Below, one piece after another: positions 7,400-31,158 of a stretch of 32,000 nucleotides of DNA. Made by a program: the position numbers and the translations under genes. Numbering within the stretch: the stretch's first letter is position 1; the number at the start of each line of letters is the position of its first letter. The notes beneath the pieces were generated by a model. The model was not told where the DNA came from. It searched no databases and was given only the letters and a program-made list of their open reading frames with translations. The stretch comes from Telmatocola sphagniphila (lineage in GTDB: Bacteria; Planctomycetota; Planctomycetia; Gemmatales; Gemmataceae): the NCBI RefSeq assembly GCF_018398935.1, contig NZ_CP074694.1, forward strand, positions 5,400,001-5,432,000, read 5' to 3'.

Positions 7400-7875
7400 G
7401 AAGTTTCGAAGGGCTTTTTCGCGCGATTTTTGGACCTCTGGACTGGCCGGTTCTGAGGGAGTGCGATCCTCGTCGGGATTAAACCCAATCGAGGTCGAGC
7501 TACCGGGGAGAATTCTCTTTGGGTGAAAACCCCAGAAGTCCTACGGCCCATATTTTGAATCCGATCTTCGACTTGTCCTGAATAATCCGTTCGTTCGCAT
7601 CAATCCTTAAGGCAGGATTAATCGTCTCATTTTGACAGGGGAAATCGCCCATTTGTCTTGACTGATTAGAAAACATAGAGAGAATGGTGTGTCTGATGAC
7701 TAAAGGGATTTCCCGGATTAGGGGAAATGCTTGGTTTATTGCTTGGAGTGGCTTTAATTCAATTTCGCTGATCGCCTGAATTGTAATTGCCCGAAAGGGA
7801 TAAGCTGCTAGCTACGACGATCATATCCGGCAAGGCCAACACCGCCTGTCCGGAGCTTACAACTTGAGGCTCAAA

Positions 7876-13800: not shown

Positions 13801-14493
13801 ATCGCCTTCACCAATTACCTGGGCCCAACCACTCTGGCCGTGGGCGATGTCAACGGCGATGGCTACGCCGATATCATCATCGGAACCGGACCGGGTACGG
13901 CCCCGCACATCAAAGTCTTCAGTGGTAAAGATGGAACCCTGCTGGATAGCTTCTACGCTTTCTCCACGAGTTTCCTGGGTGGTATCAGCGTGGCGGCCGG
14001 CGACATCAACGGCGATGGCAAGGCGGACATCGTAGTGGGCTCGGGCGCTGGCACGCAAGCCCACGTGGTCGTCTTCAGTGGGGCGGATCTCTCCATTCTG
14101 AAGAGCTACTACGCCTTTGCACCGACTTATCTGGGCGGCATCAACGTGGCCGTCGGGGATGTCAACGGCGACGGCGTGCCGGATATTATCGTTGCGGCGG
14201 CGACCGGCACCTCCGGCCACGTGATGGCTTTCGACGGTGTTACCGATAATGTCCTTGCCAGCTTCCTGACCAGCTTCCCCGCATCGTCCGGCGGCTCGGA
14301 TGTCAGCTCCACAACGCCGCTCAATGGCGTTCGAATTGCGACCGCCGATGAAACCGGCACGGGAATTGATGATATACTGGTGTCGCGATCGCAAAGTTCC
14401 CTGGTACTCAGTTACCGGGTAAGTCCGACCTTTGGACAACTGCCGACCTTCGACACCGGCTTTACCTTCGGCGTCTTCATTGGAGGCGGTTGA
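7876..14493 (+). CDS. Giant secreted/surface repeat protein: Kelch-type beta-propeller head, long Gly/Thr/Asn/Ser-rich repeat body, C-terminal FG-GAP/VCBS repeats
   Basis: Single 6.6-kb ORF; the first ATG is at 7876 (the track starts at TTG 7864). The N-terminus carries LNLLSLEDRLVP. Residues ~50-430 show repeated Kelch-like signatures (YNPTTNTW, YDPTKNEW, YDPTTNTW, FNPVTQSW). The body holds many GGxGxD-type motifs. The last ~280 aa carry four clear FG-GAP cores (VGDVNGDGIPDII, VGDVNGDGYADIIIG, AGDINGDGKADIVVG, VGDVNGDGVPDIIVA). Confidence 0.85.
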   Translation: MAQNRLKKFVKSFLPLNLLEPASKKHVSKKRSRLNLLSLEDRLVPTGSWSFVKNPVPDGDAAQTAIILSNGSVLVKGGGDSATTAYYELTPDNTGSYINGTWSVVGSMNDPRLFASSVVLQNSQVLTVGGEYPDFQNTAEVFNPVTQSWTLVPSVPTPDGGFGDDPLSVLPNGNVLAGYYNGPQTYIYNPTTNTWTNGPNKLDNDPSDEESWVKLANGDILSYSIFSSINDNVGEAQYYDPTKNEWFETGTLPALLSTPNEGYELGPALLMDDGRAIFFGTHSNTAIYDPTTNTWSAGPDIPNGYTMSDAPGAIMPNGNILIATSPVDTDDSFPSPTVIYELNTQTMTYTDVTPSGFGLDSLPSFTENMLVLPTGQVMMVNDSGTVAIYTPDGTPDPAGTPTITGITKTGGVLTLTGTKLTGLNEGAAYGDDDEMSSNYPLVQLTDMNGNVHYGYTYNWSSTQVQTGNLPITTNFSIPSNLTGAYLLSSVVQGQTSNSFLYVQPGAGANNLTVEIDPSDSTKIEILQGNTEVGLFDLNSFSQIYVNGATGNNLNTTVSISEAVAALGVPINIYGSTGTNNHLTLKLEGTSSSDSFVSGANSASIDGYSINFTGVTSVVFDGNGGNDSFDITPLSTISFTANGGGTGSTLLYHGAATLTLTGYSSGTILTNGLLSDSYTGIGTSITITGNINLNVTAGVSSTNGANNGVADNFVITGSNSGTSILINGSGLPSIIGNIVALGVIGSNDNDTVTVDNSQAAVNLPISFNGGGGNNTLNVIGAATSDNFVVNNSQVKIDSTTINYANVQTMQLTGNGGSDNFDVTPLAITAINITGSDSGTSTTNTLTYRGSGTYTITGNDSATISSPGLQNVTFTGIGGTTTFAGSYSLGISALASASNGPNNGVPDSFYVVKTLTGLQILINGVSSPNILGTLNGVIVTGSNDNDTLSVDNSGGLITAPITFNGGGGSNTLNVIGNSGQVIKRETVLLTPGGVSTLTYDPTDSAGVGATGTLSPNSLVISFNNVLNVVDTTAAQETDYYGSVGADQIDLTNGAAAFGAQTLQIQNLGDSSPVVSLANKGTLTVNGLGGGDSFLVNTTQGATGLSTLDIYGNHLPGLAGADGSETNNFSVIATSAALTTSINGQGIDDTFTLGDTGGSNSISGILGALSLIGGGTDPTVTSGYTVNGNSISLITGNILTVNDGNSSGNLAYTLTPTSLSRNGLGAISFSSIGTLQMTAGTGSDSIQVSNTGDNTATIVHGGTGSDNITVASTGVGSYLDVTNAGSGGNNTINLQAEGLNGLIQLTGGARNDTFNVGSTSNNLNSILGVLGINGGGNLAAPTSSLTVGTVTNTYAVGDTLNLNDSGDLGTTYGISGTAITLPGLNPIGYTSIGTLNLLAGSTTDTVNVASIASNATTTIITGAAADNINISGTGSSGNLIVSAGAGKNVFNVTGTGAGSLVSLQNSTTGSTDQFNVGTSGNSLSGIQGALGLSATAGTNAVSLNDQGDGGNNTYLLKPNSLSWNGGPNIVFQGVQTILLNGSAGSDTYNVNGTTAGSTTTLNDGAGASTFNVQGAGLAGNNILLGNGGGDTFNVNAGTGITATSVSISGGESNSVLSYLNVNGTNGNDNASLHLGSGSYGEQFLGLGSTPLNFDTIGDVTFNGATGAANSNSFTLYSLNNTQFGSTTGVGFNLASGIIYRPISATSGDVRLNINNAGVPVNPSLTPTIHFQNVNKSFTIDGGTNPAGSRDTVTVLGVSTTGLASTPYNETTATNGSNQIKVTDSEVDITNATLGVLRSVKLDTATLQNLVVRAGNQTSGLVGDTVSVVPSKLINILVDGMDPKSQIGGDTINPLTTGSRTLTKITTAALGGSQTRVTQSNGASFGYVNFEHVSGTGIIVTGGDAGNYSLVNVYSATNPGGAPKFVLEPYDNLFKGGTQVAVGDVNGDGIPDIITLNGTGADPHVEVFDGLTGALLQSYIAFTNYLGPTTLAVGDVNGDGYADIIIGTGPGTAPHIKVFSGKDGTLLDSFYAFSTSFLGGISVAAGDINGDGKADIVVGSGAGTQAHVVVFSGADLSILKSYYAFAPTYLGGINVAVGDVNGDGVPDIIVAAATGTSGHVMAFDGVTDNVLASFLTSFPASSGGSDVSSTTPLNGVRIATADETGTGIDDILVSRSQSSLVLSYRVSPTFGQLPTFDTGFTFGVFIGGG
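9730..10890 (+). repeat. Diverged tandem duplication of a ~194-codon module inside the giant gene
   Basis: Unit 1 starts at FDGNGGNDSFDITPL (about 9730) and unit 2 at LTGNGGSDNFDVTPL (about 10313). Both run through ...GSNDNDT(V/L)(T/S)VDNS...FNGGGG(N/S)NTLNVIG in the same order. The period is ~583 nt. Confidence 0.6.
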
Positions 14494-19026: not shown

Positions 19027-19600
19027 CCTTCTTTGAAGAAATGTTCGCGATCTAGTGCGAGAACGAAGAGAATTGGACAGCTAATGCTCTCAGGCGGGCC
19101 TTTGAAATCGGAAAAGGACCTATTCCCTGCACACTATAGCATAACCTTGTTGAATTGAATAACTATGTGCGTTGTTAGACGGCGGGAATCGATTTGAACG
19201 ATTCTTATTAGCGACGCGCTAGCGGAGCGCTATTAGTACGCACTGCATCGAGACTGTCGCGTGCATTCCCTTTACATTTCGTGCTCCTCATTGAACGAAG
19301 TAATGCTCCGTTGTCGCGGTTAATATTCGGCGTGTTAGGGGCGATTTGCCGGTGCAGAAAGAGGGAAATTTCTTGCAAATCTTCGAGGAGCGAAAGTATT
19401 TTTGGGCAAAAAAATTGGTTTAAGATAACGCACTGTCAGGTACCTAGTGCCACCCCACGGCCCGCGCGCATAAACGGGTAAAATAGAAGATCTGGCGCGT
19501 TGTAATTTTTTGTGTTAGAACGGTCCTAATTGTTCGGCAATCCGTAGACTCAGGTGTAATTGTCTAGGTGATGTGTCCGACATTTTTTAAGGACTGTCGG

Positions 19601-20743
19601 ATGGCCGAGAAACTCGTTGATATTGAAAGCATCGGTTCCTATTTCGAATCGCTCAGCGACCCTCGACACGAACGCAATCGCAAGCATCGACTTTTGGACG
19701 TCATCGTCCTTTCTATCGTCGGCATCCTTTGTGGGGCCAGTGGTCCGACCGCCATTCACCGGATTGCGGTTCAGCGTAAAGAATGGCTCCAGGGTTTTTT
19801 GACGTTAGCCAATGGGATCCCTTCGCGGGACTGCATCCGGCGGGTGTTGATGTACATCGAACCAGCGGCCTTTCAGAAGTGTTTTGAAATGTGGTCGCAG
19901 CAGATGTTTGCAACGGGAGTTCCAGGAGCGAAGCGGTTGGTTCATATTGACGGCAAGGCGTGCCGGGGTTCGCACGATGTCTCGAAGGACTTGGGTGTTT
20001 TGCACATCGTCAGCGCCTGGGCGAGCGAAGAAGGGTTGGCTTTGGGCCAGGTGGCGTGTGCGGATAAATCCAATGAAATTACGGCGATTCCTGAACTTTT
20101 GCGGCAGATTTCGGTGAAAGATTGTTTGATAAGCATTGATGCGATGGGTTGTCAAAAAGAGATCGCTTCGGCCATCGTCGACAAAGAAGGGGATTACGTT
20201 TTGGCGGTGAAGCAGAATCAACCCACGCTCTACAACGAGGTCGAAAAGAATTTTCTAGCCAGCTACGAAGAAGAGGTTGAAGGGTTGAAATATCGGGACT
20301 TCGAAACGCGAGAACGAGGCCACGGTCGTTTCGACGAACGGTCGTACCGAGTGATGCCGATTCCAAAGGATTGGCCCTTGAAAAAAGAGTGGCCGAGCGT
20401 CAAAGCCCTTGGCCAGGCGATTCGTGTGAGCCAGGAGGGAAACGACCTCGAGACGGTCGAGGTGCGCTACTACATCCTGAATCGCCAAGCGGGAGTAAAG
20501 AGGTTTGCGGAAGCCGTGCGAAGTCATTGGTCGATCGAATCGATGCACTGGGTGCTGGACGTTGTGTTTCGGGAAGATGAGAGCCGAACACGCGAGCGAA
20601 TTCTAGGCAACAATTTGAGTTGGCTAAGACGCTATGCCGTATCTTTATTGAAGAACTACGACATGAAAGACAGCATCCGAGGCAAAATGACCTGCTGCTT
20701 ACTCAACACGGACATTTTGACACAAGTGCTGATAGGAAAATAA
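19601..20743 (+). CDS. ISAs1-family (H-repeat-associated) DDE transposase, apparently intact
   Basis: From the ATG at 19601: FESLSDPRHERNRKHRLLDVIVLSIVGILCGASG (DDE_Tnp_1-associated N-terminus), IDGKACRGS, ISIDAMGCQKEIA and HWSIESMHWVLDVVFREDESR. These are signature motifs of ISAs1/IS1358-type transposases. IS ends could not be defined. Confidence 0.9.
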   Translation: MAEKLVDIESIGSYFESLSDPRHERNRKHRLLDVIVLSIVGILCGASGPTAIHRIAVQRKEWLQGFLTLANGIPSRDCIRRVLMYIEPAAFQKCFEMWSQQMFATGVPGAKRLVHIDGKACRGSHDVSKDLGVLHIVSAWASEEGLALGQVACADKSNEITAIPELLRQISVKDCLISIDAMGCQKEIASAIVDKEGDYVLAVKQNQPTLYNEVEKNFLASYEEEVEGLKYRDFETRERGHGRFDERSYRVMPIPKDWPLKKEWPSVKALGQAIRVSQEGNDLETVEVRYYILNRQAGVKRFAEAVRSHWSIESMHWVLDVVFREDESRTRERILGNNLSWLRRYAVSLLKNYDMKDSIRGKMTCCLLNTDILTQVLIGK

Positions 20744-20763
20744 CTTCCAATACGCGCTGGCCG

Positions 20764-20834
20764 TGGTGCCACCCAAGCCATTACAGGATAATGACTTGCG
20801 CTTATTGAGAAAGGATGTCAGTACCACCCGCCGG
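20764..20834 (+). repeat. Solo copy of the ~68-bp terminal-repeat unit (right-end orientation) abutting the transposase stop
   Basis: GTGGTGCCACCCAAGCCATTACAGGATAATGACTTGCGCTTATTGAGAAAGGATGTCAGTACCACCCGCCGG aligns with the right terminal unit at 25242-25313. Shared parts are the GTGCCACCCAAG start, the ATAATGACTTG core and the CAGTxxCACCCGxCGG end. Confidence 0.65.
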
Positions 20835-21049
20835 GGCTAGCATGGTACACCGCTGGCGGGTAAATTAACCAGTTCTATCCCCATTTTGACTTGAATTTTC
20901 ACATTAGAGGGAGGGTTCAACAGATAGAGCAACCGAGATCGCCAGTGGTTCTAGAGCCATTCCTGACATATCCTTTGCTAGAGAAGCGAGGTATACTCAA
21001 CAAAAACCACTGGGGAGTGAATTGTCCCGGATTGGTCGCCTAGGGAGTT

Positions 21050-22069
21050 GTGTGTGTGGCTACTGCTGAGCAACTAAAAGCACTGATTAAAAGCCACACG
21101 TCGAGCAATGACGAACACTTCCGCACTGTGGCGCTGCAAATCGCCGCGCACACTGCTAAGCAAGGAAATACCCGTCTTGCCGACGAACTTCGTGCTCTTG
21201 TGGAAGAAGGTCGTCGAAAACAAGCCACGGCAGGGACGCCGCGTGCGATACCAATCGCTCGACCATCAGGCGAACTCGCAGGCCTTGTTGCCGCCAGCTA
21301 TCCAAACACTCGGCTAATTGATATGGTGCTCACTGAGAGCATCCGCCACCAGCTCGAAGAAGCAGTCCAACAGCATCGACAACGAGACCGCTTACGCACT
21401 CACGGTTTCGCGCCGAAGCGACGTCTACTCCTTGTCGGTCCTCCCGGTTGCGGAAAGACCATGACTGCTACGGCACTCGCAGGAGAGTGCCAACTTCCAT
21501 TGATGTTCGTGCAGCTTCACAGTCTGATCACGAAATACATGGGTGAGACTGCGGCGAAGCTACACGTTGTTTTCGATGCGATGGCAGAGACCCGAGGCGT
21601 CTATTTATTCGATGAGTTTGACGCAATTGGAGCGACTCGAACAGCAGGCAACGATGTCGGCGAGATTCGCCGAGTACTCAATTCGTTTCTTCAATTCATG
21701 GAGCGAGACGACTCAGACAGTATCATCGTAGCCGCGACAAATTTCATGGAAATGTTAGACGACGCACTGTTTCGTCGTTTCGACGATGTGATTCGATATT
21801 CGCCTCCTAACAGTAAAGCCATCCGGTCGCTTATCGAATCAAGACTCAGCTCTTTCACCCTTACCGGCTTGCGGTGGCAAAAACTGCTTACTGCTGCCAA
21901 GGGGTTGAGTCATGCCGAGGTGGCACGTTCTTGCGACGCCGCCGCTCGCACGACCATTCTAGGTGGTGATACGACACTGACAGGCGATCAACTCGTACAA
22001 GCCCTTTCTGCGCGTAGCGGAATGCGGTTGCATTCTCCAAAATCCAGGAAAAAAACTTCGCATGATTGA
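21050..22069 (+). CDS. AAA+ ATPase (classic clade), IetA-like partner of the downstream subtilase
   Basis: Walker A GPPGCGKT (21437-21460). Walker B VYLFDEFD (Asp-Glu codons at 21611-21616). Sensor-1 region is IIVAATN, and LDDALFRRFD carries the arginine-finger region. GTG start at 21050 is preceded by GGGAG; GTG at 21056 is also possible. The stop overlaps the next gene by 8 nt. Confidence 0.85.
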   Translation: MCVATAEQLKALIKSHTSSNDEHFRTVALQIAAHTAKQGNTRLADELRALVEEGRRKQATAGTPRAIPIARPSGELAGLVAASYPNTRLIDMVLTESIRHQLEEAVQQHRQRDRLRTHGFAPKRRLLLVGPPGCGKTMTATALAGECQLPLMFVQLHSLITKYMGETAAKLHVVFDAMAETRGVYLFDEFDAIGATRTAGNDVGEIRRVLNSFLQFMERDDSDSIIVAATNFMEMLDDALFRRFDDVIRYSPPNSKAIRSLIESRLSSFTLTGLRWQKLLTAAKGLSHAEVARSCDAAARTTILGGDTTLTGDQLVQALSARSGMRLHSPKSRKKTSHD

Positions 22070-24746
22070 GAAGCCCCATCTCAGGTTGCACAACACAGCC
22101 CAACCTCTCGATTATACATCAACAATAACCGGCAGTAGAAAGGTTTTCGACCTTCCTCCGCGTGATCCTTCAATTCACGCTCCAAAGTTAAAGGCGGAAA
22201 TTGATGCAGCAAGTGCAAATGCTCAGTTACGCCGTAAGGCCAACCAAAGTCTGACACCCGACGTTCTTGCAAGAAAACCAGAAGGGATGATTCTGACATT
22301 TGAAAGCGATCCCGGAGGTGAACTCAAACTCGAAAGTCTGGAAGACCAGCGTGCTGGCATCAAGGTAGTCAGCGTCAACCAAGTTGATGGTATTGAGCAA
22401 GCCAAAGTATTCGTCCCCGAAGGAAAGCAGACGTTCTTGCTGCGAAAGATTGACGAGTACACATCTCATGCCACTTTGACCATTGATGGAGACTTGTCAA
22501 ACCGGCCTCGACTGGAAGCTCTGGCTGATTTGGAACTCGGTATTCGCGTAATCGCCAAAGATCGCCCGGGAGATAAGGTTCGAGTCACAATCAAATGTCC
22601 AGCAGCCGAGGCAGACCGCATCGCTGCCGAGGTGTCATCATTTGCAACCGTAAAAAAATCGGCCCGAAAGAACGAGCCTCTCATACATAGTATCGCTGCT
22701 GTTCGGCTCGCACTCGTTCATGATTTCTGGCAAGGCTCAGGTCCCCCGCCGACAACAAAGTCGCCAATGTGGTGGGAAGTTTGGCTACACGGTCGGCGAG
22801 ACAAAGCAGTGGAACGGTTTGATCGTTTCCGAGAGATCGCACGGCACCTCGGCATCCGAACTGGCTCAAGATTTATCGCGTTTCCTGAAAGAGTCGTGTT
22901 TGTCGCCTACGCCACGGCCACTCAGTTTGCAGAATCCATAGACTTGTTGACTATGCTCTCGGAACTCAGACGAGCGAAAGAACTTCCAACACCTTACGTA
23001 ACGCTAAGTGTTATCGATCAGCGAGCTTTCAGCCAGAATTTACTGACTTCACTTCAGCCTCCGCGTGCTGACGCTCCATCTGTTTGCTTGCTTGACAGCG
23101 GGGTTAATCGAGGCCATCCGCTACTAGATGTCGCACTAAGCGAGCAAGACGTATTTGCAGTGGATTCAGAATGGGGAACAGCAGATCACGATACATACCA
23201 ACACGGAACGGGCATGGCTGGTATCGCACTCTACGGTTGCCTAACAAAAGTTCTTGCCCAGTCCGGAATAGTATCTCTTAGTCACCGATTGGAATCCGTC
23301 AAAATACTCCCACCCCCTCCCAAAGCAAATGACCCTGATCTGTATGGGGCAATCACTCAGCAAGCCGCATCACTAGCAACCATCAGAAATCCGAATCGTA
23401 ACCGCGTTTACTGCATGGCTGTCACATCTGATTCAAGCGACAACGGGCTTCCGTCATCTTGGTCTGCGGCCCTTGATGAAATGTGTGCTGGTGTGGTTGA
23501 TGAGACCCCTAAGTTATTCTTTGTCTCTGCGGGTAACATCCGAAGCGAATTTCACGCAACCAGCTACAAATATCACGCTTGGAATTGTGAGCAGGCCGGT
23601 GTCGAAGACCCAGCCCAATCGTGGAATGCTATTACGGTCGGAGCATATACCGAAAAAGTTGCAATTAGCGAATCCGACTTTGAGGGATGGCAACCGCTTG
23701 CCGAACCAGGGGATCTGTGCCCGACAAGTAGGACATCGCTTGCTTGGCCCACTGACCAACATAAAGGCTGGCCGACGAAGCCGGATTTTGTCTGTGAAGG
23801 AGGAAATTACGTTGAGATCGCTGGCAAGCGTTCCAGTGCAGATGACCTTTCACTTCTCACGACCATACTACATCCAAGTGGTCGTCTGTTTGAAACAACC
23901 AGAGATACAAGTCCCGCCACTGCTGAAGCTGCGCGACTAGCGGCCACTCTTTGGAGCCACTATCCCACGTTGCGTCCGGAAACTTTACGTGCATTGCTCG
24001 TCCACTCATCACGTTGGACGGATGCGATGTATCGTCGGTTCCCAGGTGACAAGAAGTCACAGATTCAAAGGCGACTTCGAACTTATGGTTACGGCGTGCC
24101 AGACTTAAACCGAGCGCTCTACAGTTTGGTAAACGCCGTAACTCTCGTTTACGAGGGTGGACTTCAGCCTTTTAAGTTAGATGCGCAAAAACAGCCAAAG
24201 ACAAATGAAATGCACTTACATTCTCTACCGTGGCCCAAAAAAACCTTGGAGGATCTTGGCAAAACAGAAGTTTCAATGCGGGTCACATTATCGTATTTCA
24301 TTGAGCCAAGCCCGGGACGAGTTGGTTGGGAAAACAAACACCGCTACCAGTCACACGGCCTTCGTTTCGACGTTATTCGTCCAACAGAAATGCTATCAGA
24401 GTTTCGACAGCGAGTTTCTCGTGCCGAATGGGATGACCCGAAAAACCCCAAGAGTAGACCCGATACTGTTGCCGAGACGCGAAACTGGATTGTCGGCGAA
24501 GACGGCCGGACGCATGGCTCCATTCATTCTGATTGGTGGACTGGAACAGCTGCGGAACTTGCGGCCGCAGGTCACTTAGCTGTATATCCAGTAACTGGTT
24601 GGTGGCGTGAGCGGCCTCATCTCGGAAGGGTGGCTCAAAGGACACGTTACAGTCTCATTATCTCAATCGAGACACCAGATACTGCAGTGGATCTCTACAC
24701 TCCAATCGAAGTCTCGTCGAATGTTAAGACCGAAGTGTTGGTGTGA
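22062..24746 (+). CDS. Cytoplasmic S8 (subtilisin-like) serine peptidase with large N- and C-terminal extensions, IetS-like
   Basis: 894 aa with no signal peptide. Subtilase motifs occur in canonical order: CLLDSGV (Asp codon 23094), QHGTGMAG (His codon 23202), VSAGN (Asn codon 23535) and RDTSPATAEAA (Ser codon 23910). About 340 aa at the N-terminus and ~270 aa at the C-terminus are unassigned. Confidence 0.85.
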   Translation: MIEKPHLRLHNTAQPLDYTSTITGSRKVFDLPPRDPSIHAPKLKAEIDAASANAQLRRKANQSLTPDVLARKPEGMILTFESDPGGELKLESLEDQRAGIKVVSVNQVDGIEQAKVFVPEGKQTFLLRKIDEYTSHATLTIDGDLSNRPRLEALADLELGIRVIAKDRPGDKVRVTIKCPAAEADRIAAEVSSFATVKKSARKNEPLIHSIAAVRLALVHDFWQGSGPPPTTKSPMWWEVWLHGRRDKAVERFDRFREIARHLGIRTGSRFIAFPERVVFVAYATATQFAESIDLLTMLSELRRAKELPTPYVTLSVIDQRAFSQNLLTSLQPPRADAPSVCLLDSGVNRGHPLLDVALSEQDVFAVDSEWGTADHDTYQHGTGMAGIALYGCLTKVLAQSGIVSLSHRLESVKILPPPPKANDPDLYGAITQQAASLATIRNPNRNRVYCMAVTSDSSDNGLPSSWSAALDEMCAGVVDETPKLFFVSAGNIRSEFHATSYKYHAWNCEQAGVEDPAQSWNAITVGAYTEKVAISESDFEGWQPLAEPGDLCPTSRTSLAWPTDQHKGWPTKPDFVCEGGNYVEIAGKRSSADDLSLLTTILHPSGRLFETTRDTSPATAEAARLAATLWSHYPTLRPETLRALLVHSSRWTDAMYRRFPGDKKSQIQRRLRTYGYGVPDLNRALYSLVNAVTLVYEGGLQPFKLDAQKQPKTNEMHLHSLPWPKKTLEDLGKTEVSMRVTLSYFIEPSPGRVGWENKHRYQSHGLRFDVIRPTEMLSEFRQRVSRAEWDDPKNPKSRPDTVAETRNWIVGEDGRTHGSIHSDWWTGTAAELAAAGHLAVYPVTGWWRERPHLGRVAQRTRYSLIISIETPDTAVDLYTPIEVSSNVKTEVLV

Positions 24747-24866
24747 AGTCAAAATTTATGGTTCTTCTCCAATTTTAATGGGTAAGTGCTGCAATGAATT
24801 CACGGCGGGGTGGCACTGGCAACCCTAACCTGTAACCGCAAGTCATTATACAGTAATAGTTTGGGT

Positions 24867-24888
24867 GGCACTGGCTATTGCCAGTGCC
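24867..24888. repeat. Perfect 9-bp-stem hairpin GGCACTGGC-TATT-GCCAGTGCC at the inner edge of the left terminal unit
   Basis: Read directly. Its reverse complement is identical to the hairpin at 29216-29237 that immediately precedes the group II intron. Confidence 0.8.
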
Positions 24889-24942
24889 GGATAGAATGAC
24901 GAAACCAATACCTAATCCCACTTATCCCGAATTCTAGCCTGA

Positions 24943-25185
24943 TTCCTGAAAAATAGGCTGGCTGCATGGGCAGATCCAGCTTTCGAAATTACGGACTCCT
25001 TCCCTCCTGACGAATGGTTGAAGGGATATCCATTCGAGCGAGCCATGGACTGTAAATGGTCCTCAGCCAAGTTTTACTCCCAGAAGACTCTGGAACAGCG
25101 AGATCGAGATTTGCCAATTAGTCAGGGTTTTCCTGAAGATTGGCAAGAATACGAGCTAACAAGTCGTGAATTCCTTGTGGTTTGA
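24943..25185 (+). pseudogene. Start-less 80-codon open frame inside MITE-like copy 1 (gene remnant)
   Basis: Open from the TGA at 24940 to the TGA at 25183. It translates as FLKNRLAAWADPAFEITDSFPPDEWLKGYPFERAMDCKWSSAKFYSQKTLEQRDRDLPISQGFPEDWQEYELTSREFLVV. No ATG/GTG occurs near its 5' end. The paralogous frame in copy 2 (about 28931-29175) is broken by a 2-nt insertion. Confidence 0.35.
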
Positions 25186-25517
25186 AATAGGGTGATTTGA
25201 TGTCGAAAATGGATGAGTTCCTTATGGCACTATCAGATACACAGTGCCACCCAAGTATTTGCTGTATAATGACTTGTGATTATTGGGAGGGGTTGCCAGT
25301 GTCACCCGTCGGGCAAGCTCACTTTGCCAAAGAGAAAGCCCTTCTCTCTTGGCCAGGGCGTGAGTGATTACCAAATGAGGGCGTAAAGGATCAAATCTTA
25401 AATCATGATAATAATTTTGTAAGTAATAAGCCGAATTCTTTTCTAATGGCTTTGACTAATAATCGAGTACTGCTTAATATTAGGCTCAACTTCAGTGCTC
25501 AGGAGTAGCCTTCGCCA

Positions 25518-25955
25518 ATGCCCCGCTTGATTCCAATTCCAATTTTGAATTCACTGAGATATTGGTATTTTCCAATTGCGGCATTGTTACTGTTTGCCGC
25601 TGGCACAAAAATATTTGGGCAAAGCTGGGGGCCAGATCCTCAATCCAATTGGATACTTTTACCGGTTGTGCAATCAATCGTAATAGCCTGGGAGATACTT
25701 CTCGCTAGTTTGCTCCTGTCAGGACATATACGCCACATAGCTTGGCTCTTATGTGTAATCACATTCTTAACTTTTGCATTGGTTAGCGCTGATTTAGCAC
25801 AAGAAGGTTTTCCTACTTGTAACTGCTTTGGCCCAGTTGCTGTAAATCCGTGGCTGATCTTCGGGTTTGATACGCTGGTTGTATGTTTTCTATTTCTTGC
25901 CGTCCAGTACCTTTTAAAATTCGAGCTGAGATCTTGCGGCATGGATTTTCTCTAG
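25518..25955 (+). CDS. MauE/DoxX-family redox-associated membrane protein
   Basis: 145 aa with four hydrophobic helices. It has the family-typical Cys-x-Cys-Phe-Gly motif (CNCFG) after the third helix. AGGAG lies 12 nt upstream of the ATG. Confidence 0.6.
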   Translation: MPRLIPIPILNSLRYWYFPIAALLLFAAGTKIFGQSWGPDPQSNWILLPVVQSIVIAWEILLASLLLSGHIRHIAWLLCVITFLTFALVSADLAQEGFPTCNCFGPVAVNPWLIFGFDTLVVCFLFLAVQYLLKFELRSCGMDFL

Positions 25956-25969
25956 CCAAAGTGGTTTTG

Positions 25970-26350
25970 ATGATTGGCACAGTAATGGTGTGGTTGTCTG
26001 CAAGCGGCGCAATCCATGCAGCAATTTGCATCATCACGGGAAGAGTTTTAGAAGTTGAGCGTTACGTGGACTTTGGTGAGGTACATCCCCAGGAAAAATT
26101 TATTCATGAATTGACTATCAGAAATTCGAGCAGTATTGAACTGAATGTGGTAGGTGGCACGAGTGATTGCTCTTGTCTTGTAATAAATGTACCACAGTCA
26201 ATTCCTCCAAACGGCAGTGCATCTGTTCAAGTGCTGCTAAAAGTTCCCTCTGAAGCGAGAAGTCGAATTATTCGATGGGTTCAACTGTATACTGATTTAC
26301 CCAACCAGCCGCGTTTGCGGATAGCGATCGGTTACAATGTCAGCAGATAG
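25970..26350 (+). CDS. DUF1573-domain (PapD/ASH-like beta-sandwich) protein with an N-terminal signal anchor
   Basis: From the ATG at 25970 (the GTG at 25961 is also possible): signal anchor MIGTVMVWLSASGAIHAAICII, then VDFGEVHPQEKFIHELTIRNSSSIELNVVGGTSDCSCLV...IPPNGSASVQVLLKV. This follows the DUF1573 pattern (DFG..., N.G...L, SCGC-like, PG....I.V). The longer track ORF overlaps the upstream gene. Confidence 0.6.
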   Translation: MIGTVMVWLSASGAIHAAICIITGRVLEVERYVDFGEVHPQEKFIHELTIRNSSSIELNVVGGTSDCSCLVINVPQSIPPNGSASVQVLLKVPSEARSRIIRWVQLYTDLPNQPRLRIAIGYNVSR

Positions 26351-26403
26351 TTCGCCGGAGACAGGTTTCGGCAGCTTAAGGTTCGTTGAATCAGGCGTTC
26401 GTG

Positions 26404-26682
26404 ATGAAGAAGAAAAAGTTTAGATTGTTGAGCACTCTAACGCTCGGTACTCTGTGCCTATTCACGGCAATATCGGCTGCTCAAGAACTTTCACAAATGC
26501 TACCACCTCCCATTCCAATCCCAGCGCTCTTATGCTACCGGGCTTCAAGCCCTACCGAATGGGCGTGTGATGGGTTATGTACTGTAGAAGGTGAATCTTG
26601 CGGGCGACTCACCGGTGTCGGATTCATGGAGATTGATGGCCAGAGAGTAAGCTACACTGCATATAGCTGCGCTTGCGGTTAA
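26404..26682 (+). CDS. Small secreted Cys-rich protein (92-aa precursor, ~64-aa mature, 6 Cys)
   Basis: The ATG at 26404 gives MKKKKFRLLSTLTLGTLCLFTAISAAQE (signal peptide). The mature part is PPPIPIP...CYRASSPTEWACDGLCTVEGESCGRLTG...YSCACG. No family recognised. Confidence 0.5.
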   Translation: MKKKKFRLLSTLTLGTLCLFTAISAAQELSQMLPPPIPIPALLCYRASSPTEWACDGLCTVEGESCGRLTGVGFMEIDGQRVSYTAYSCACG

Positions 26683-28715: not shown

Positions 28716-29705
28716 GGCTCGATGTCATTACGTCCAAGACCATCCATGTGCATGACACAGGCTTATTTGCCCGTGCAAGAAAAAGCTTGCGGCGGGGTGG
28801 CACTGGTAACCCTAACCTGTAAACGCAAGTCATTATACAGTAATAGTTTGGGTGGCACTGGCTATTTGCTGATGCCAGAGAGAGTGAAGAGATCAAAACC
28901 TTATCCCACTCATCCCGAATTCTAGCCATCTTCCTGGAAGATACGCTAGCTGCATGGGCAAATCCAGCCCTCGAAATTACGGACTTCTTCCCTCCTGACC
29001 AAGGGTTGAAGGGATATCTCCATTCGAGCGAGCCATGGACTTTAAGTGGTCCTCGGCCAAATTTTACTCCCAGAAGACTCTGGAAGTGCGAGATCGAGAT
29101 TTGCCAATTATTCATGGTCTTCCTGGTGATTGGGGAGGATATGAGCTACCAGGGCATGAATTCTTTCTGGGTTAAAATAGGGTGATTTGTGATTGAAAAT
29201 GGGTGATTTCGCAATGGCACTGGCAATAGCCAGTGCCACGTGCGCCCGTGACTATTCGATACTAGCAGGGTGAGATTCCCTGTCGAAAGGAGGCTTGGCC
29301 TTTTGTACCCGAAGGTAACTGCGTCGCTGCGAGGCGGGGTGGAGAGCAACCGGAGGGGAGCATTTCGTCCGCAATAAAGTGAACTCATTTCGGCAGCGGA
29401 TACCGGCGAGCCTGCGTGGCTAAGGCGAAGCTAGCAAAGCCGGATTGACCGAGAGGTCCGCCAGTGGTTTGGAGAACTAATGGCGACGGCATCATCCCGA
29501 GATAAAGCCCCAAGCGAGTCGAGGGAGGTATCCGATGTGGTTGGAGGCGGAAGGAAAGCGAAGGTATCGAATGTAAGCGGGGATATCCGAGGCGCCGGGG
29601 AAGGCAAATGCCTTGTGCGTCGGAAGTCAGAGCGTTCATAGTAGCGTAGAAATCGGGTAATACCGAGGGAGCGAAGGGACGTAGGAAGGTGGATTTCGAG
29701 GTTAC

Positions 29706-31073
29706 ATGAGCAGGAAAGAGAAACCGTCGTCAGTGCCAGTGGCTAAGCAAGGCGGAGAAGCCGGCGACCGAACTCCGGGAACCGTTAGTAGGGTCCGAGA
29801 GCAATGGTCGTGGGCGGAACCTGCGGTGTGGACTGATCGGATGTTGAGTGCGCTCGAAGCGGGCGTTAAAGGAGGCGTCTGGTTTAGCTTGATGGACAAG
29901 GTGTGCAAGAAGAGGAACCTGAAGTCGTCGGCGACGAAAGTCATAGCGAATGCGGGTTCGGCAGGCGTGGATCATGTAAGTGTCGAGGCGTTTGCAAATC
30001 ATTTGGACGAGAACCTGGAAGCTTTGGAGCGGACTTTACGGGACGGAACCTACCGTCCTTCGGCGATCCGGCGAGCGGTAATTCCGAAGCCGGGGAGTGA
30101 AGAAGGCCGTCCTCTAGGAATTCCGACGGTTCGAGACCGGGTGGTTCAAGGCGCGATTCGTCAGGTGCTGGAACCGATTTTCGAGAAGGATTTCGCCTCG
30201 AATAGTTACGGCTTTCGTCCGGGCCGGGGCTGCAAAAATGCCTTGCGAGAGGTGGACAGACTTCTGAAAGAAGGAGGCACGCATCTGGTGGATGTCGACA
30301 TCAAGGGCTACTTCGACGCGATCAATCACGATCAATTAATGGATTTATTGAAGCGAAAGGTCGCGGACGGAACGCTACTAGGTCTGGTGGAACAATTTCT
30401 GAAAGCCGAGATATTCTCGTCGATGGGGAGTTGGGAACCGGAATCGGGAGCCCCGCAAGGGGCAGTTTTGAGTCCGTTGTTGAGTAACGCCTATCTGGAT
30501 CCTTTGGACCATTTGATGGAATCCCTAGGTTTTCGGATGGTGCGATACGCGGATGACATGGTGATCGTCTGCCGCAGTCGAGCGGAAGCGGAAGAAGCCC
30601 TGGCGACGTTGAGCCGCTGGTGCGAATCGGCCAAGCTACAACTGCATCCGGAAAAGACGAGAGTGGTGGACACGCAGATCGAGAGTTTCGAATTTCTAGG
30701 CTATTGCTTTGGAGTTTATAAAGGACAACGTCTGATATATCCTCGGAAGCGAAGTCTGGAGAAACTTCGGGATGCGATTCGCGCGAAAACGAAGCGGAAA
30801 AGAGGCGATAGCCTATCGCAGATCGTCCGAGACGTGAGCGTAACGCTACGAGGCTGGTACGGATACTTCAAGCACAGCAAAAAGGGGATCTTTCGGGACG
30901 TGGATAAATGGACTCGAATGCGGCTGCGGTGCATACTGCGTCGTCGTCTGGGTCACGATTGCAGAAGCCGAAAGAGAGATAACTTCAAGTGGCCCAAAGC
31001 TTACTTTGCCGAGGCGGGACTGTTCTCCCTGGAACAGGCACATCGTCTGGAATCTCAATCCCTCAAGGGGTAA
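29706..31073 (+). CDS. Group II intron reverse transcriptase/maturase
   Basis: 455 aa. RT blocks are RPLGIPTVRDRVVQ, SYGFRPGRGCKNA, VDVDIKGYFD, GAPQGAVLSPLLSN and VRYADDMVIV (YADD codons 30546-30557). Maturase/X region is LRGWYGYFKHS. There is no HNH/En extension. Confidence 0.92.
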   Translation: MSRKEKPSSVPVAKQGGEAGDRTPGTVSRVREQWSWAEPAVWTDRMLSALEAGVKGGVWFSLMDKVCKKRNLKSSATKVIANAGSAGVDHVSVEAFANHLDENLEALERTLRDGTYRPSAIRRAVIPKPGSEEGRPLGIPTVRDRVVQGAIRQVLEPIFEKDFASNSYGFRPGRGCKNALREVDRLLKEGGTHLVDVDIKGYFDAINHDQLMDLLKRKVADGTLLGLVEQFLKAEIFSSMGSWEPESGAPQGAVLSPLLSNAYLDPLDHLMESLGFRMVRYADDMVIVCRSRAEAEEALATLSRWCESAKLQLHPEKTRVVDTQIESFEFLGYCFGVYKGQRLIYPRKRSLEKLRDAIRAKTKRKRGDSLSQIVRDVSVTLRGWYGYFKHSKKGIFRDVDKWTRMRLRCILRRRLGHDCRSRKRDNFKWPKAYFAEAGLFSLEQAHRLESQSLKG

Positions 31074-31088
31074 GACTACTGACCGGAA

Positions 31089-31158
31089 AGCCGGATGCGG
31101 GAGATCCGCCCGTCCGGTTTGGAGGGAAGGGGGAGCCCTATACTCCTCCTAGCCCTAT
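31089..31158 (+). ncRNA. Group II intron domains V and VI
   Basis: DV reads AGCCGGAUGCGG-GAGAU-CCGC(CC)GUCCGGUU. Its pairs are A89-U19, G90-U18, C91-G17, C92-G16, G93-C15, G94-C14, A95-U13, U96-G12, then G97-C09, C98-G08, G99-C07 and G00-C06 (last two digits of coordinates). DV is followed by a GGGGAG/CUCCUC helix and a terminal AU. Confidence 0.7.

What the first reader, a model, noticed from the sequence alone, without database searches (positions are those of the whole stretch)
21050..24746. Translationally coupled AAA+ ATPase plus cytoplasmic subtilase: an IetA/IetS-like conflict module in a planctomycete-like accessory island
Two co-oriented genes overlap by 8 nt (ATGATTGA, 22062-22069).

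- Gene 1 (339 aa) has a short helical N-terminus, then a classic AAA+ core with Walker A GPPGCGKT and Walker B LFDEFD.
- Gene 2 (894 aa) has no signal peptide, which is unusual for a subtilase. A ~340-aa N-terminal region is unassignable. Then come D-H-N-S subtilase motifs in canonical order (LLDSGV, HGTGMAG, SAGN, DTSPATAEAA), followed by a ~270-aa C-terminal extension.

This two-gene architecture is the one I recall for IetA/IetS. That pair was first described as a stability/incompatibility (toxin-antitoxin-like) pair on Agrobacterium pTiC58 and was later reported to protect against phage. This is recalled from literature, not searched. For that family the trigger, the protease substrate and the role of the ATPase remain unknown. 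I know of no characterised planctomycetal member.

The context fits a horizontally moving defence module. An ISAs1 transposase lies 0.3 kb upstream, repeat units bracket the pair (20764-20834 and 24807-24874), and its composition is intermediate between the core genes and the AT-richer cassette downstream.
Basis: partly seen in the sequence, partly recalled or inferred. Interest (0 to 1): 0.72.

Follow-up and report, generated by a model that had tools for sequence, protein, structure and literature searches.

The report
Known IetAS defence pair, planctomycete copy
The two overlapping genes are an intact copy of IetA/IetS, a known ATPase-plus-protease toxin-antitoxin and anti-phage module, in the planctomycete Telmatocola sphagniphila; it belongs to a large, widespread family whose mechanism is still unsolved.

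Summary
The window is Telmatocola sphagniphila (Gemmataceae); NCBI labels the genes only "ATP-binding protein" and "S8 family peptidase".

The IetAS interpretation is supported.
- PADLOC IetA and IetS profiles match (E 3e-73 and 4e-35).
- The proteins align end to end with the founding pTiC58 pair (52% and 38% identity).
- In 76 of 76 related loci that include upstream DNA, an IetA homologue sits directly before IetS. The two proteins' distance matrices correlate (Mantel r 0.83).
- Walker A/B, the pore loop K-[F/Y]-M-G-E, the Arg pair and the Asp-His-Asn-Ser residues are conserved.
- No signal peptide or membrane segment was found.

Corrections:
- ietA most likely starts at GTG 21056 (337 aa).
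- The flanking repeats belong to a dispersed family. The ISAs1 element inserted into one copy.
- A trigger is already published for a Bacillus homologue.

Most likely mechanism (inferred): the ATP-driven IetA restrains a cytoplasmic subtilase, whose release causes abortive infection or post-segregational killing.

The family has about 1,300-1,700 clusters at 50% identity and occurs in 488 plasmid records. This is a new member of a known kind, of modest interest.

The parts
21056..22069 (+). ietA: an AAA+ ATPase and the predicted antitoxin. It is 337 aa from GTG 21056; the ORF could also open at GTG 21050 (339 aa). Residue numbers in this report use the 339-aa frame.
   Evidence: ORF. PADLOC IetA E 3.1e-73. 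Pfam AAA at residues 126-249. 52% identity to pTiC58 IetA. The exact 337-aa protein is QVL31431.1/WP_213495312.1.
21437..21460 (+). IetA Walker A motif GPPGCGKT (Lys136 codon 21455-21457)
   Evidence: The G-x-x-G-x-G-K residues are conserved in 77 of 77 IetA homologues.
21533..21547 (+). IetA pore loop 1, K-Y-M-G-E (residues 162-166)
   Evidence: In 77 homologues: K 74 / R 3; F 54 / Y 23; M 75; G 77; E 74. That this motif is the substrate-translocating loop of classic-clade AAA+ proteins is established knowledge, not tested here.
21605..21622 (+). IetA Walker B motif LFDEFD (Asp188, Glu189)
   Evidence: The D-E pair is conserved in 77 of 77 homologues.
21773..21778 (+). IetA Arg242-Arg243, the predicted arginine fingers of the second region of homology. 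The sensor-1 Asn231 codon is 21740-21742.
   Evidence: R, R and N are each conserved in 76 of 76 aligned homologues. Sequence read.
22062..22069 (+). 8-nt overlap ATGATTGA: the ietS start codon overlaps the ietA stop codon
   Evidence: The same 8-nt overlap occurs in the 78%-identical relative (L083). In the related loci the junction mostly ranges from a 4-nt overlap to a 33-nt gap.
22062..24746 (+). ietS: a cytoplasmic S8 subtilase and the predicted toxin/effector, 894 aa
   Evidence: ORF. PADLOC IetS E 4.4e-35. Pfam S8 E 1.9e-52. 38% end-to-end identity to pTiC58 IetS. 100% identical to QVL31432.1/WP_213495313.1 of Telmatocola sphagniphila.
22062..22166 (+). IetS N-terminal tail, residues 1-35: conserved in sequence but modelled with low confidence
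   Evidence: M1, H6, L7, R8, Y18, F29, P32 and R34 are invariant or nearly so, and the tail is conserved in pTiC58 IetS. pLDDT is 45-53 in the model of the isolated N-terminal region.
22467..22667 (+). Ferredoxin-like beta-alpha-beta-beta-alpha-beta insertion module, IetS residues 136-202. It is absent from pTiC58 IetS and from the roughly 825-aa forms.
   Evidence: AlphaFold2 secondary structure, with pLDDT above 90 over residues 141-200. Gap in the pTiC58 alignment. Homologue lengths fall into two classes.
22767..22973 (+). Second beta-alpha-beta-beta-alpha-beta module, IetS residues 236-304, directly before the catalytic domain. Its position resembles that of a subtilase pro-domain.
   Evidence: AlphaFold2 secondary structure, pLDDT about 82-94 (10-residue block means). 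W238, E239, W241, F274, P275, E301, L302 and R303 are invariant. There is no sequence match to Inhibitor_I9 or any other Pfam or PDB family.
23073..24095 (+). S8 catalytic domain, residues 338-678. Asp345 is at 23094-23096, His381 at 23202-23204, oxyanion Asn492 at 23535-23537 and Ser617 at 23910-23912.
   Evidence: Pfam PF00082 at residues 338-678. D345, H381, N492 and S617 are invariant in 26 homologues. Coordinates.
24096..24743 (+). Conserved C-terminal beta-sandwich domain, residues 679-894, specific to the IetS family
   Evidence: AlphaFold2 pLDDT 78.6, pTM 0.78, mostly strands. Only weak jelly-roll matches were found (TM about 0.3). No PDB sequence relative. The domain occurs in 1,764 / 1,316 / 705 clusters at 50% identity at E <= 1e-3 / 1e-10 / 1e-30, nearly always at the C-terminus of proteins of about 820-900 aa.
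19456..20765 (+). Context: a complete ISAs1-family insertion sequence (transposase ORF 19568-20743). It has terminal inverted repeats and a 9-bp target duplication GTGCCACCC.
   Evidence: NF033564 at 348 bits. Pfam DDE_Tnp_1_assoc plus DDE_Tnp_1. Ends, duplication and the reconstructed target site.
20766..20835 (.). Context: a 70-nt unit of a dispersed repeat. This is the right half of the copy that the IS split; the left part is at 19430-19455.
24802..25313 (.). Context: a dispersed element of about 450-500 bp with inverted 70-nt end units (24808-24878 and 25244-25313). A second copy lies at 28789-29240.
   Evidence: About 85% identity over 452 columns to 28789-29240.

Best explanation
**What it is.** This is an intact chromosomal copy of the IetA/IetS two-gene module in Telmatocola sphagniphila. 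The module is a protein toxin-antitoxin pair that also acts as an abortive-infection anti-phage system.

- IetA is a classic-clade AAA+ ATPase with a full set of catalytic and pore-loop residues. It is therefore most likely a hexameric, ATP-driven protein remodeller.
- IetS is a cytoplasmic subtilase. Its Asp-His-Ser core follows about 335 residues of regulatory modules: a conserved tail, a beta-rich domain, and two ferredoxin-like modules, the last sitting where a subtilase pro-domain sits. A family-specific beta-sandwich domain follows the core.

**Proposed working (inferred).**
1. The two proteins are made together from one tightly coupled transcript.
2. IetA uses ATP to keep IetS proteolytically harmless.
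3. IetA may be blocked or titrated by a phage protein, or may stop being resupplied after the element is lost.
4. IetS then becomes active and cleaves essential cell proteins. The infected or cured cell stops growing or dies.

**Shown here:** family membership, intact motifs, strict gene linkage and co-inheritance, horizontal spread, and absence of secretion signals.

**Taken from published work on homologues:** the toxin/antitoxin roles, the requirement for protease activity, and abortive infection with a phage-protein trigger.

**Inferred:** the direction of control (ATP-dependent restraint), the pro-domain-like role of residues 236-304, and the substrates.

My confidence is about 0.9 that this is an IetAS-family module. 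It is about 0.45 that the ATP-dependent-restraint mechanism is right.
For: **Family membership.**
- The PADLOC IetA and IetS profiles are the top hits for the two proteins (E 3.1e-73 and 4.4e-35).
- The proteins align with the pTiC58 founding pair at 52% identity over 322 aa and 38% identity end to end. One search confirms that the comparison sequence is identical to NC_003065.3.

**Linkage.**
- An IetA homologue lies directly upstream of IetS, on the same strand, in 76 of 76 loci that have upstream DNA.
- Junctions mostly range from a 4-nt overlap to a 33-nt gap.
- No third gene is conserved.
- The IetA and IetS distance matrices correlate (Mantel r 0.83; 0 of 999 permutations reach it).

**Intact machinery.**
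- In IetA, Walker A, Walker B, the pore loop K-[F/Y]-M-G-E, the sensor-1 Asn and the Arg pair are conserved in 76-77 of 77 homologues.
- In IetS, D345, H381, N492 and S617 are invariant.

**Cytoplasmic location.** No hydrophobic N-terminus or membrane segment was found.

**Mobility.**
- Homologues occur in 488 plasmid records.
- Relatives from other phyla (Thermoanaerobaculia, 55%) are closer than those from the same family (Gemmataceae, 40-49%).
- The 78%-identical pair sits between two integrase genes, next to an AbiJ-domain gene.
- In the window, an IS, dispersed repeats and lower GC surround the pair.

**Published function of homologues.**
- IetS is the toxin and IetA the antitoxin. Protease activity is needed for defence. 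ietA catalytic mutants could not be cloned (PMC13069673).
- The system acts by abortive infection and is triggered by SPbeta YosG (10.1101/2022.08.27.505566).
- An AAA/subtilase pair is a validated toxin-antitoxin system in mycoplasmas, where deleting the antitoxin alone is lethal (PMC8562856).
Against: - Nothing about this particular copy has been tested.
- The NCBIfam equivalog models IteA and IteS are matched far below their cut-offs (209 bits against 510, and 68 against 900). The founding pTiC58 proteins score lower still on these models (199 and 40 bits).
- The window holds no other defence gene, so there is no defence-island support.
- The pro-domain idea rests only on predicted topology and position. 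No sequence or structural match to subtilase pro-peptides was found.
- The conserved pore loops would fit a substrate-feeding role as well as a restraining one.
- The consensus promoter and terminator scans found nothing above chance.
Confidence: 0.85

Rival explanations
1. IetA and IetS form a two-component ATP-dependent protease. IetA unfolds chosen substrates, such as phage proteins, and hands them to IetS, as ClpX does for ClpP or PAN for the proteasome. Defence would then be direct destruction of invader proteins. IetS alone would be toxic only because it is unregulated.
For: - IetA has the canonical translocating pore loop K-[F/Y]-M-G-E, conserved in 77 of 77 homologues.
- Its closest solved and curated relatives are unfoldases: p97 D2, NSF, PAN and FtsH.
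- The two genes are strictly linked and co-inherited.
Against: - Published genetics on homologues place IetA as the neutraliser: ietA catalytic mutants cannot be cloned, and deleting the antitoxin alone is lethal (PMC13069673; PMC8562856).
- A Bacillus ietAS shows culture collapse at high multiplicity of infection, which is abortive infection and not direct clearance.
- Subtilases are not known to form gated chambers (established knowledge).
Confidence: 0.15
2. In this genome the pair serves only as an addiction (stabilisation) module for the mobile region that carries it, as on pTiC58. It has no role against phages of Telmatocola.
For: - The founding pair was described as a plasmid stability and incompatibility system (cited in PMC13069673, and PMC8562856).
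- Homologues are common on conjugative plasmids (342 of 488 records).
- The closest relative lies between integrase genes.
- No other defence gene lies nearby in the window.
Against: - Homologues from several hosts protect against phages.
- The two roles are not exclusive and rest on the same biochemistry.
- No integrase or conjugation genes were identified among the window ORFs that were scanned.
Confidence: 0.2
3. The two genes are unrelated neighbours: a housekeeping AAA+ ATPase next to an ordinary, possibly exported, subtilase. An alternative version is an EccA/mycosin-like secretion pair.
For: There are weak NCBIfam matches to T7SS EccA (38.5 bits) and to mycosin (27 bits). NCBI annotates the genes generically.
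Against: - Those scores are far below the cut-offs of 467 and 279 bits.
- The IetA and IetS profiles match much better.
- Synteny holds in 76 of 76 loci and the proteins are co-inherited.
- No signal peptide or membrane segment was found.
- The distribution is patchy and crosses phyla.
Confidence: 0.02

Closest known systems
IetA/IetS of Agrobacterium pTiC58 (NC_003065.3 97873-101373), the founding toxin-antitoxin pair
   Same: - Same gene order and orientation.
- IetA is 52% identical over 322 aa. IetS is 38% identical from residue 5 to 894.
- Both share the conserved N-terminal tail, the module before the S8 core, the catalytic residues and the C-terminal domain.
   Different: - The window IetS carries an extra ferredoxin-like module of about 50-65 residues (within residues 136-202) that pTiC58 IetS lacks.
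- The window pair is chromosomal, not on a plasmid.
- The gene junction is an 8-nt overlap here and a 3-nt gap in pTiC58.
Experimentally tested anti-phage ietAS systems (E. coli and Bacillus cereus m1293) and the NCBIfam IteA/IteS equivalogs
   Same: The two-gene architecture is the same. The PADLOC family models built from such systems match both proteins. Published work shows the protease is essential for defence and that the system acts by abortive infection.
   Different: - The enterobacterial plasmid IetS aligns only from about residue 161 (38% identity).
- The NCBIfam equivalog cut-offs are not reached.
- Trigger and phage range cannot be carried over to a planctomycete.
ietHAS, an ietAS variant with an SNF2 helicase (PMC13069673)
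   Same: It shares the IetA and IetS core.
   Different: No helicase gene lies next to the pair in the window or recurrently in the 76 related loci.
AAA-ATPase/subtilisin-like toxin-antitoxin pair of Mycoplasma mycoides (TA132/133; PMC8562856)
   Same: The AAA antitoxin gene lies upstream of an S8 toxin gene, and the pair is chromosomal.
   Different: The sequence relationship to the window pair was not tested. The toxin is smaller (757 aa).
TRIP13/Pch2-like AAA+ regulators of CBASS (functional analogy only)
   Same: In both, an AAA+ remodeller is encoded beside an immune effector system. The remodeller is thought to keep the system switched off by ATP-driven remodelling (established knowledge). 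There is a weak PADLOC TRIP13 match at E 3.7e-14.
   Different: The TRIP13 match is far weaker than the IetA match. There is no HORMA or cyclase partner, and the effector here is a protease.
Subtilase pro-peptide (Inhibitor_I9)
   Same: A beta-alpha-beta-beta-alpha-beta module lies immediately N-terminal to the S8 core.
   Different: No sequence match was found in 36 homologues. No PDB profile match or Foldseek match to pro-peptides was found. This is a resemblance of position and topology only.

Membership tests
IetAS (toxin-antitoxin / anti-phage pair) | AAA+ ATPase gene directly upstream of an S8 peptidase gene, same strand, tightly linked | tested here: met
   The genes overlap by 8 nt. 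The same arrangement is found in 76 of 76 related loci that have upstream DNA.
IetAS (toxin-antitoxin / anti-phage pair) | The ATPase matches IetA profile models over nearly its full length | tested here: met
   PADLOC PDLC02196: E 3.1e-73, residues 6-326 against profile positions 4-325 of 374. Three further IetA models also match.
IetAS (toxin-antitoxin / anti-phage pair) | The peptidase matches IetS profile models beyond the S8 core | tested here: met
   PADLOC PDLC02198: E 4.4e-35, residues 239-831 against profile positions 159-728 of 795. Four further IetS models also match.
IetAS (toxin-antitoxin / anti-phage pair) | Homology to the founding pTiC58 IetA and IetS over the whole length | tested here: met
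   52% identity over 322 aa (E 5e-114) for IetA, and 38% over residues 5-894 (E 1e-171) for IetS. The identity of the reference sequence was confirmed.
IetAS (toxin-antitoxin / anti-phage pair) | Intact ATPase and protease catalytic residues | tested here: met
   K136, D188/E189, N231 and R242/R243 in IetA. D345, H381, N492 and S617 in IetS.
IetAS (toxin-antitoxin / anti-phage pair) | Cytoplasmic protease (no export signal) | tested here: met
   Tested only by hydropathy and a twin-arginine motif scan. No dedicated signal-peptide predictor was available.
IetAS (toxin-antitoxin / anti-phage pair) | The two genes are inherited as a unit | tested here: met
   Mantel r 0.83 over 69 loci; 0 of 999 permutations reach it.
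IetAS (toxin-antitoxin / anti-phage pair) | IetS is toxic and IetA neutralises it | not testable with these tools
   Known only for homologues.
IetAS (toxin-antitoxin / anti-phage pair) | Protects against phage or stabilises a replicon | not testable with these tools
   Known only for homologues.
NCBIfam IteA_antiphage / IteS_antiphage equivalogs (narrow subfamily) | Score at or above the curated cut-off (510 and 900 bits) | tested here: not met
   The window proteins score 209.1 and 67.7 bits. The founding pTiC58 pair scores 198.8 and 39.9 bits. These models therefore define a narrower subtype, and I do not file the window pair under it.
ietHAS (three-gene variant) | An SNF2-type helicase gene in the operon | tested here: not met
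   The neighbouring ORFs are an ISAs1 transposase, a glyoxalase and MauE/DUF1573 proteins. No recurrent third gene appears in 76 loci.
Classic-clade AAA+ protein remodellers | Walker A and B, aromatic-hydrophobic-Gly pore loop 1, sensor-1 Asn, arginine fingers | tested here: met
   The best solved relatives are p97 D2, NSF and AFG2 (E about 1e-40). Hexamer formation and unfolding activity were not tested.
Subtilases (peptidase family S8) | Pfam S8 domain with Asp, His, oxyanion Asn and Ser in that order | tested here: met
   PF00082: E 1.9e-52, residues 338-678. The four residues are invariant.
Subtilase pro-peptide (Inhibitor_I9) | Sequence or structural match to I9 pro-peptides | tested here: not met
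   No Pfam hit in 36 homologues of residues 228-336. No PDB profile hit. Foldseek returns only generic tandem ferredoxin/ACT-like matches at TM about 0.16.
Type VII secretion EccA / mycosin | Score at or above the NCBIfam cut-offs | tested here: not met
   38.5 bits against a cut-off of 466.65, and 27 bits against 278.75.

The most novel reading that the evidence does not exclude
IetA may be a "kinetic antitoxin". In this reading it is a hexameric unfoldase that grips the conserved, apparently flexible N-terminal tail of IetS (residues 1-35). It would keep remodelling the N-terminal modules so that the pro-domain-like module at residues 236-304 cannot be released. IetS would then be a cytoplasmic zymogen whose maturation is blocked only while ATP-driven IetA activity continues. 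Any phage protein that stalls IetA, or any drop in ATP, would arm the protease. This would be a toxin-antitoxin logic not yet described. The evidence does not exclude it: the pore loops and the tail are conserved, the topology fits, and the published finding that ietA mutants cannot be cloned is compatible. Nothing here shows it.
Probability: 0.2. Interest if true: 0.6.

Novelty: new member of a known kind. Interest (0 to 1): 0.25.

Why it matters
The gain is in annotation. Two genes labelled only "ATP-binding protein" and "S8 family peptidase" in Telmatocola sphagniphila can be named as an IetAS module.

The survey shows that the family is common in Planctomycetota and many other phyla. It is always a self-contained two-gene unit, and it moves horizontally.

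The family's mechanism is still an open question: the substrates, how a phage is sensed, and why an ATP-burning AAA+ protein acts as the antidote to a protease.

The family-wide features collected here give concrete mutational targets:
- a strictly conserved translocating pore loop in IetA;
- a conserved IetS N-terminal tail;
- a pro-domain-positioned module before the catalytic core;
- a family-specific C-terminal beta-sandwich.

This planctomycete copy offers no special experimental advantage over the E. coli, Bacillus or Agrobacterium systems already in use.

Tried and rejected
**Searches that found nothing**
- Sequence searches of PDB found no IetS relative. I tried full-length IetS, a 26-sequence profile of it, and profiles of the N-terminal region, of residues 228-336 and of the C-terminal domain.
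- Pfam assigned nothing to residues 1-340 or 625-894, even at E <= 1.
- The Inhibitor_I9 idea got no sequence support in 36 homologues.
- Literature searches found no mechanistic or structural paper on IetAS. The most recent statement (April 2026) is that the mechanism is unknown. The original 2009 pTiC58 paper is not held in the library.

**Structure-based searches**
- Foldseek of the AlphaFold2 C-terminal model gave only weak jelly-roll matches: picornavirus VP1, bromovirus coat protein and calpain domain III, at TM about 0.3.
- Foldseek of the N-terminal model gave only generic tandem ACT/ferredoxin-like matches at TM about 0.16.
- Both structure-prediction jobs went on isolated regions. 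No full-length or complex model was made.

**Context ideas rejected**
- "The repeats bracket a mobile cassette": the unit is dispersed in the window, and one copy was the target of the IS insertion.
- "Defence island": no other PADLOC match lies nearby.
- "A conserved third gene": the largest neighbour cluster is a type I restriction-modification methylase/specificity pair, present in only 5-6 of 76 loci.
- "Carried by phages": only 2 of 50,697 phage records hold a homologue.

**Uninformative**
- The promoter and terminator consensus scans found nothing above chance.

Full report
**1. The observation**

The region holds two co-oriented ORFs, 21050..22069 (339 aa from GTG) and 22062..24746 (894 aa from ATG). 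They overlap in the octamer ATGATTGA at 22062-22069.

- Walker A GPPGCGKT at nt 21437-21460, with the Lys136 codon at 21455-21457.
- Walker B LFDEFD at 21605-21622.
- The subtilase motifs LLDSGV, HGTGMAG, SAGN and DTSPATAEAA, with the Ser617 codon at 23910-23912.

Pfam places an AAA domain at IetA residues 126-249 and a Peptidase_S8 domain at IetS residues 338-678. Nothing is assigned to the first 337 or the last 216 residues of the protease, even at permissive thresholds.

The protease has no hydrophobic N-terminus, no membrane-like segment and no twin-arginine motif.

There is one small correction. The exact protein in public databases is the 337-aa form that starts at GTG 21056; the 339-aa form is not on record. 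Homologues align from residue 3.

**2. Origin**

The protease is 100% identical to QVL31432.1/WP_213495313.1, "S8 family peptidase" of Telmatocola sphagniphila, on a 6.59-Mb contig. The ATPase is QVL31431.1/WP_213495312.1, "ATP-binding protein". The organism belongs to Planctomycetota, Gemmatales, Gemmataceae.

**3. Identity**

- PADLOC's IetA models are the best matches for gene 1 (PDLC02196, E 3.1e-73, nearly full length). Its IetS models are the best matches for gene 2 (PDLC02198, E 4.4e-35, residues 239-831).
- I fetched the founding pair from an Agrobacterium Ti plasmid and confirmed that its DNA is identical to pTiC58, NC_003065.3 97873-101373.
- The window IetA is 52% identical to pTiC58 IetA over 322 residues.
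- The window IetS is 38% identical to pTiC58 IetS from residue 5 to 894. This covers the N-terminal tail, the region before the catalytic core and the whole C-terminal domain.
- The NCBIfam equivalog models IteA_antiphage and IteS_antiphage are matched well below their cut-offs (209 bits against 510, and 68 against 900). The pTiC58 proteins score lower still (199 and 40 bits). Those models therefore describe a narrower subtype, and failing them says nothing against membership of the wider family.
- Weak matches to type VII secretion EccA and mycosin are far below their cut-offs.

**4. Linkage across genomes**

- The best 80 loci come from Planctomycetota, Myxococcota, Desulfobacterota, Acidobacteriota, Verrucomicrobiota, Chlorobiota, Alpha-, Beta- and Gammaproteobacteria and others.
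- In all 76 loci that include DNA upstream of the protease gene, an IetA homologue (41-69% identical, near full length) ends at or just before the protease start on the same strand.
- The junction mostly ranges from a 4-nt overlap to a 33-nt gap.
- No third gene recurs. The largest neighbour cluster is a type I restriction-modification methylase/specificity pair, in 5-6 loci.
- Pairwise distances of the two proteins correlate strongly over 69 loci (Mantel r 0.83; none of 999 permutations exceeds 0.10). The pair is therefore inherited as a unit.

**5. Mobility**

- Relatives from other phyla (a Thermoanaerobaculia MAG, 55%) are closer than those from the same family (Gemmata 49%, Gemmataceae MAGs 40-44%).
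- 488 plasmid records carry a homologue, 342 of them on conjugative plasmids.
- Only 2 phage records carry one.
- The closest relative (78% identity) has the same 8-nt overlap and a 337-aa ATPase. It lies in a different setting, between two tyrosine-integrase genes and beside an AbiJ-domain gene and a DUF1016/YhcG gene.

**6. Context in the window**

- GC content falls from 0.55-0.60 in the core genes at 1-17 kb to 0.46-0.54 over 17-25 kb and 0.43-0.44 at 25-28 kb.
- The upstream ORF is an ISAs1-family transposase (NF033564, 348 bits).
- I could delimit the whole insertion sequence at 19456-20765, with terminal inverted repeats and a 9-bp target duplication GTGCCACCC.
- That unit is dispersed. 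Its box GGGTGGCACTGGC occurs 11 times in the window against 0.77 expected by chance.
- The copy just downstream of ietS forms part of an element of about 450 bp (24802-25251). This element recurs at 28789-29240 at about 85% identity.
- The repeats are therefore real but do not specifically bracket the pair.
- No other ORF near the pair matches a PADLOC model. The one exception is generic reverse-transcriptase hits from a group II intron maturase (TIGR04416, 372 bits), with an Rfam group II intron match just downstream.

**7. Anatomy of IetA**

Among 77 homologues the following are conserved:

| Feature | Conservation |
|---|---|
| Walker A G-x-x-G-x-G-K | 77/77 |
| Walker B D-E | 77/77 |
| Sensor-1 Asn | 76/76 |
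| Arg242-Arg243 | 76/76 |
| Pore loop 1, K-[F54/Y23]-M-G-E | Gly 77/77 |

By established knowledge, this loop is the aromatic-hydrophobic-glycine motif with which classic-clade AAA+ machines grip and translocate polypeptides. The best solved relatives are p97 D2, NSF and AFG2 (E about 1e-40). IetA is therefore most likely an active protein remodeller and not a passive binder.

**8. Anatomy of IetS**

The catalytic residues D345, H381, N492 and S617 are invariant in 26 homologues.

An AlphaFold2 model of residues 1-340 (mean pLDDT 77.9) shows, in order:
- A tail (residues 1-35) that is conserved in sequence but modelled with low confidence.
- A long helix (36-60).
- A beta-rich domain (69-134).
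- A ferredoxin-like beta-alpha-beta-beta-alpha-beta module (136-202), with pLDDT above 90 over most of its length.
- A helix (205-221).
- A second beta-alpha-beta-beta-alpha-beta module (236-304) directly before the catalytic domain.

The first ferredoxin-like module is the insertion that separates the roughly 890-aa forms from pTiC58 IetS and the roughly 825-aa forms.

The second module sits where subtilase pro-peptides sit and has the same topology. I found no sequence or structural match to pro-peptides, so this remains a resemblance and not a classification.

The C-terminal 216 residues are the most conserved part of the protein. They are modelled as a beta-sandwich (pLDDT 78.6, pTM 0.78). 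The only structural matches are weak jelly-roll hits.

A profile of this domain finds 1,764 / 1,316 / 705 clusters at 50% identity at E <= 1e-3 / 1e-10 / 1e-30 among 1.84 billion representatives. The domain lies almost always at the end of proteins of 820-900 residues. It is therefore a hallmark of IetS.

No IetS relative has a solved structure detectable by sequence.

**9. Mechanism**

Published work on homologues says the following:
- IetS is the toxin and IetA the antitoxin. The protease active site is needed for defence. Plasmids with mutated ietA could not be built. The anti-phage mechanism "remains unknown" (PMC13069673, April 2026).
- A Bacillus cereus ietAS acts by abortive infection and becomes toxic when the SPbeta protein YosG is expressed (bioRxiv 10.1101/2022.08.27.505566).
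- An AAA/subtilase pair in mycoplasmas is a validated toxin-antitoxin system. Deleting the antitoxin alone is lethal (PMC8562856).

Putting this together with the anatomy, I favour ATP-dependent restraint. IetA uses ATP hydrolysis and its pore loops to keep IetS inactive, possibly by acting on the conserved N-terminal tail and modules. Blocking IetA, or losing its supply, frees the protease to cleave cell proteins.

I rate this mechanism at about 0.45. The main rival, a ClpXP-like substrate-feeding machine, I rate at about 0.15. Family membership itself I rate at about 0.9.

**10. Verdict**

This is an ordinary, intact member of a large, mobile, already named family. Standard defence-finder tools would flag it.

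It is new only as an unannotated copy in a planctomycete, and it belongs to the common long subtype with an extra N-terminal module. Interest is modest (0.25). The open question is the family's mechanism, and this copy gives no special leverage on it.

Noticed in passing
window 19456-20765 (flanks 19430-19455 and 20766-20835): A complete ISAs1-family insertion sequence. Its terminal inverted repeats read CACGGCC[C/A]GCGCG and it has a 9-bp target duplication GTGCCACCC. It inserted into a copy of a dispersed 70-nt repeat, and joining the flanks rebuilds that unit.
   Followed up: yes
window 24802-25251 and 28789-29240; boxes also at 25244-25313, 29229, 31204, 6939: A dispersed element of about 450 bp, about 85% identical between two copies 4 kb apart. 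Its ends carry 70-nt units, each with two GGGTGGCACTGGC boxes. The nature of the element (MITE-like or REP-like) is unknown. No Rfam family matches it at gathering threshold.
   Followed up: partly
window 29706-31158: A group II intron. The reverse transcriptase/maturase ORF is at 29706-31073 (TIGR04416, 372 bits; Pfam RVT_1 plus GIIM). An Rfam Intron_gpII match lies at 31086-31158. The PADLOC defence-RT hits to this ORF are generic.
   Followed up: partly
window 25518-26682: An AT-rich cassette (GC about 0.43-0.44). It encodes a MauE-like membrane protein, a DUF1573 protein and a 98-aa Cys-rich protein with a signal-like N-terminus (26386-26682). No PADLOC match was found.
   Followed up: no
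L083 (JGI 3300058929, contig Ga0573889_0045), 604-13264: The closest homologous pair (78% identity) lies between two tyrosine-integrase genes. An AbiJ_NTD3 protein and a DUF1016/YhcG protein are next to it. This looks like an integrative island carrying several defence-type genes.
   Followed up: no
L033 3701-7008; also L046, L052, L059, L064, L073: Type I restriction-modification genes (HsdM, HsdS) adjoin the ietAS pair in 5-6 of 76 loci. A published E. coli survey reports that RM III and ietAS co-localise.
   Followed up: partly
protein P0147 (1046 aa): This IetS-like fragment has the C-terminal half of the S8 domain and the IetS C-terminal domain at residues 204-407. About 640 further residues follow with no Pfam match. 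It may be a fusion or a variant architecture.
   Followed up: partly
IetS homologues P0006, P0067, P0096 and many others: The precomputed annotation lists a Pfam family PF27160 N-terminal to the S8 domain in many homologues. The local Pfam copy lacks this family, so I could not see what it covers or whether the window protein reaches its threshold.
   Followed up: partly
window 7864-14493: A 2,209-aa ORF with Kelch repeats near the N-terminus and FG-GAP repeats near the C-terminus. It is followed by a small ORF with a sub-threshold match (29.7 bits, cut-off 34.9) to a bacterial alpha-2-macroglobulin MG3 domain.
   Followed up: no
IetS residues 1-35 (22062-22166), 756-761 and 818-820: These segments are nearly invariant in sequence but were modelled with pLDDT below about 55 in the isolated-domain models. 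They are candidate contact sites for IetA or for other IetS domains.
   Followed up: no
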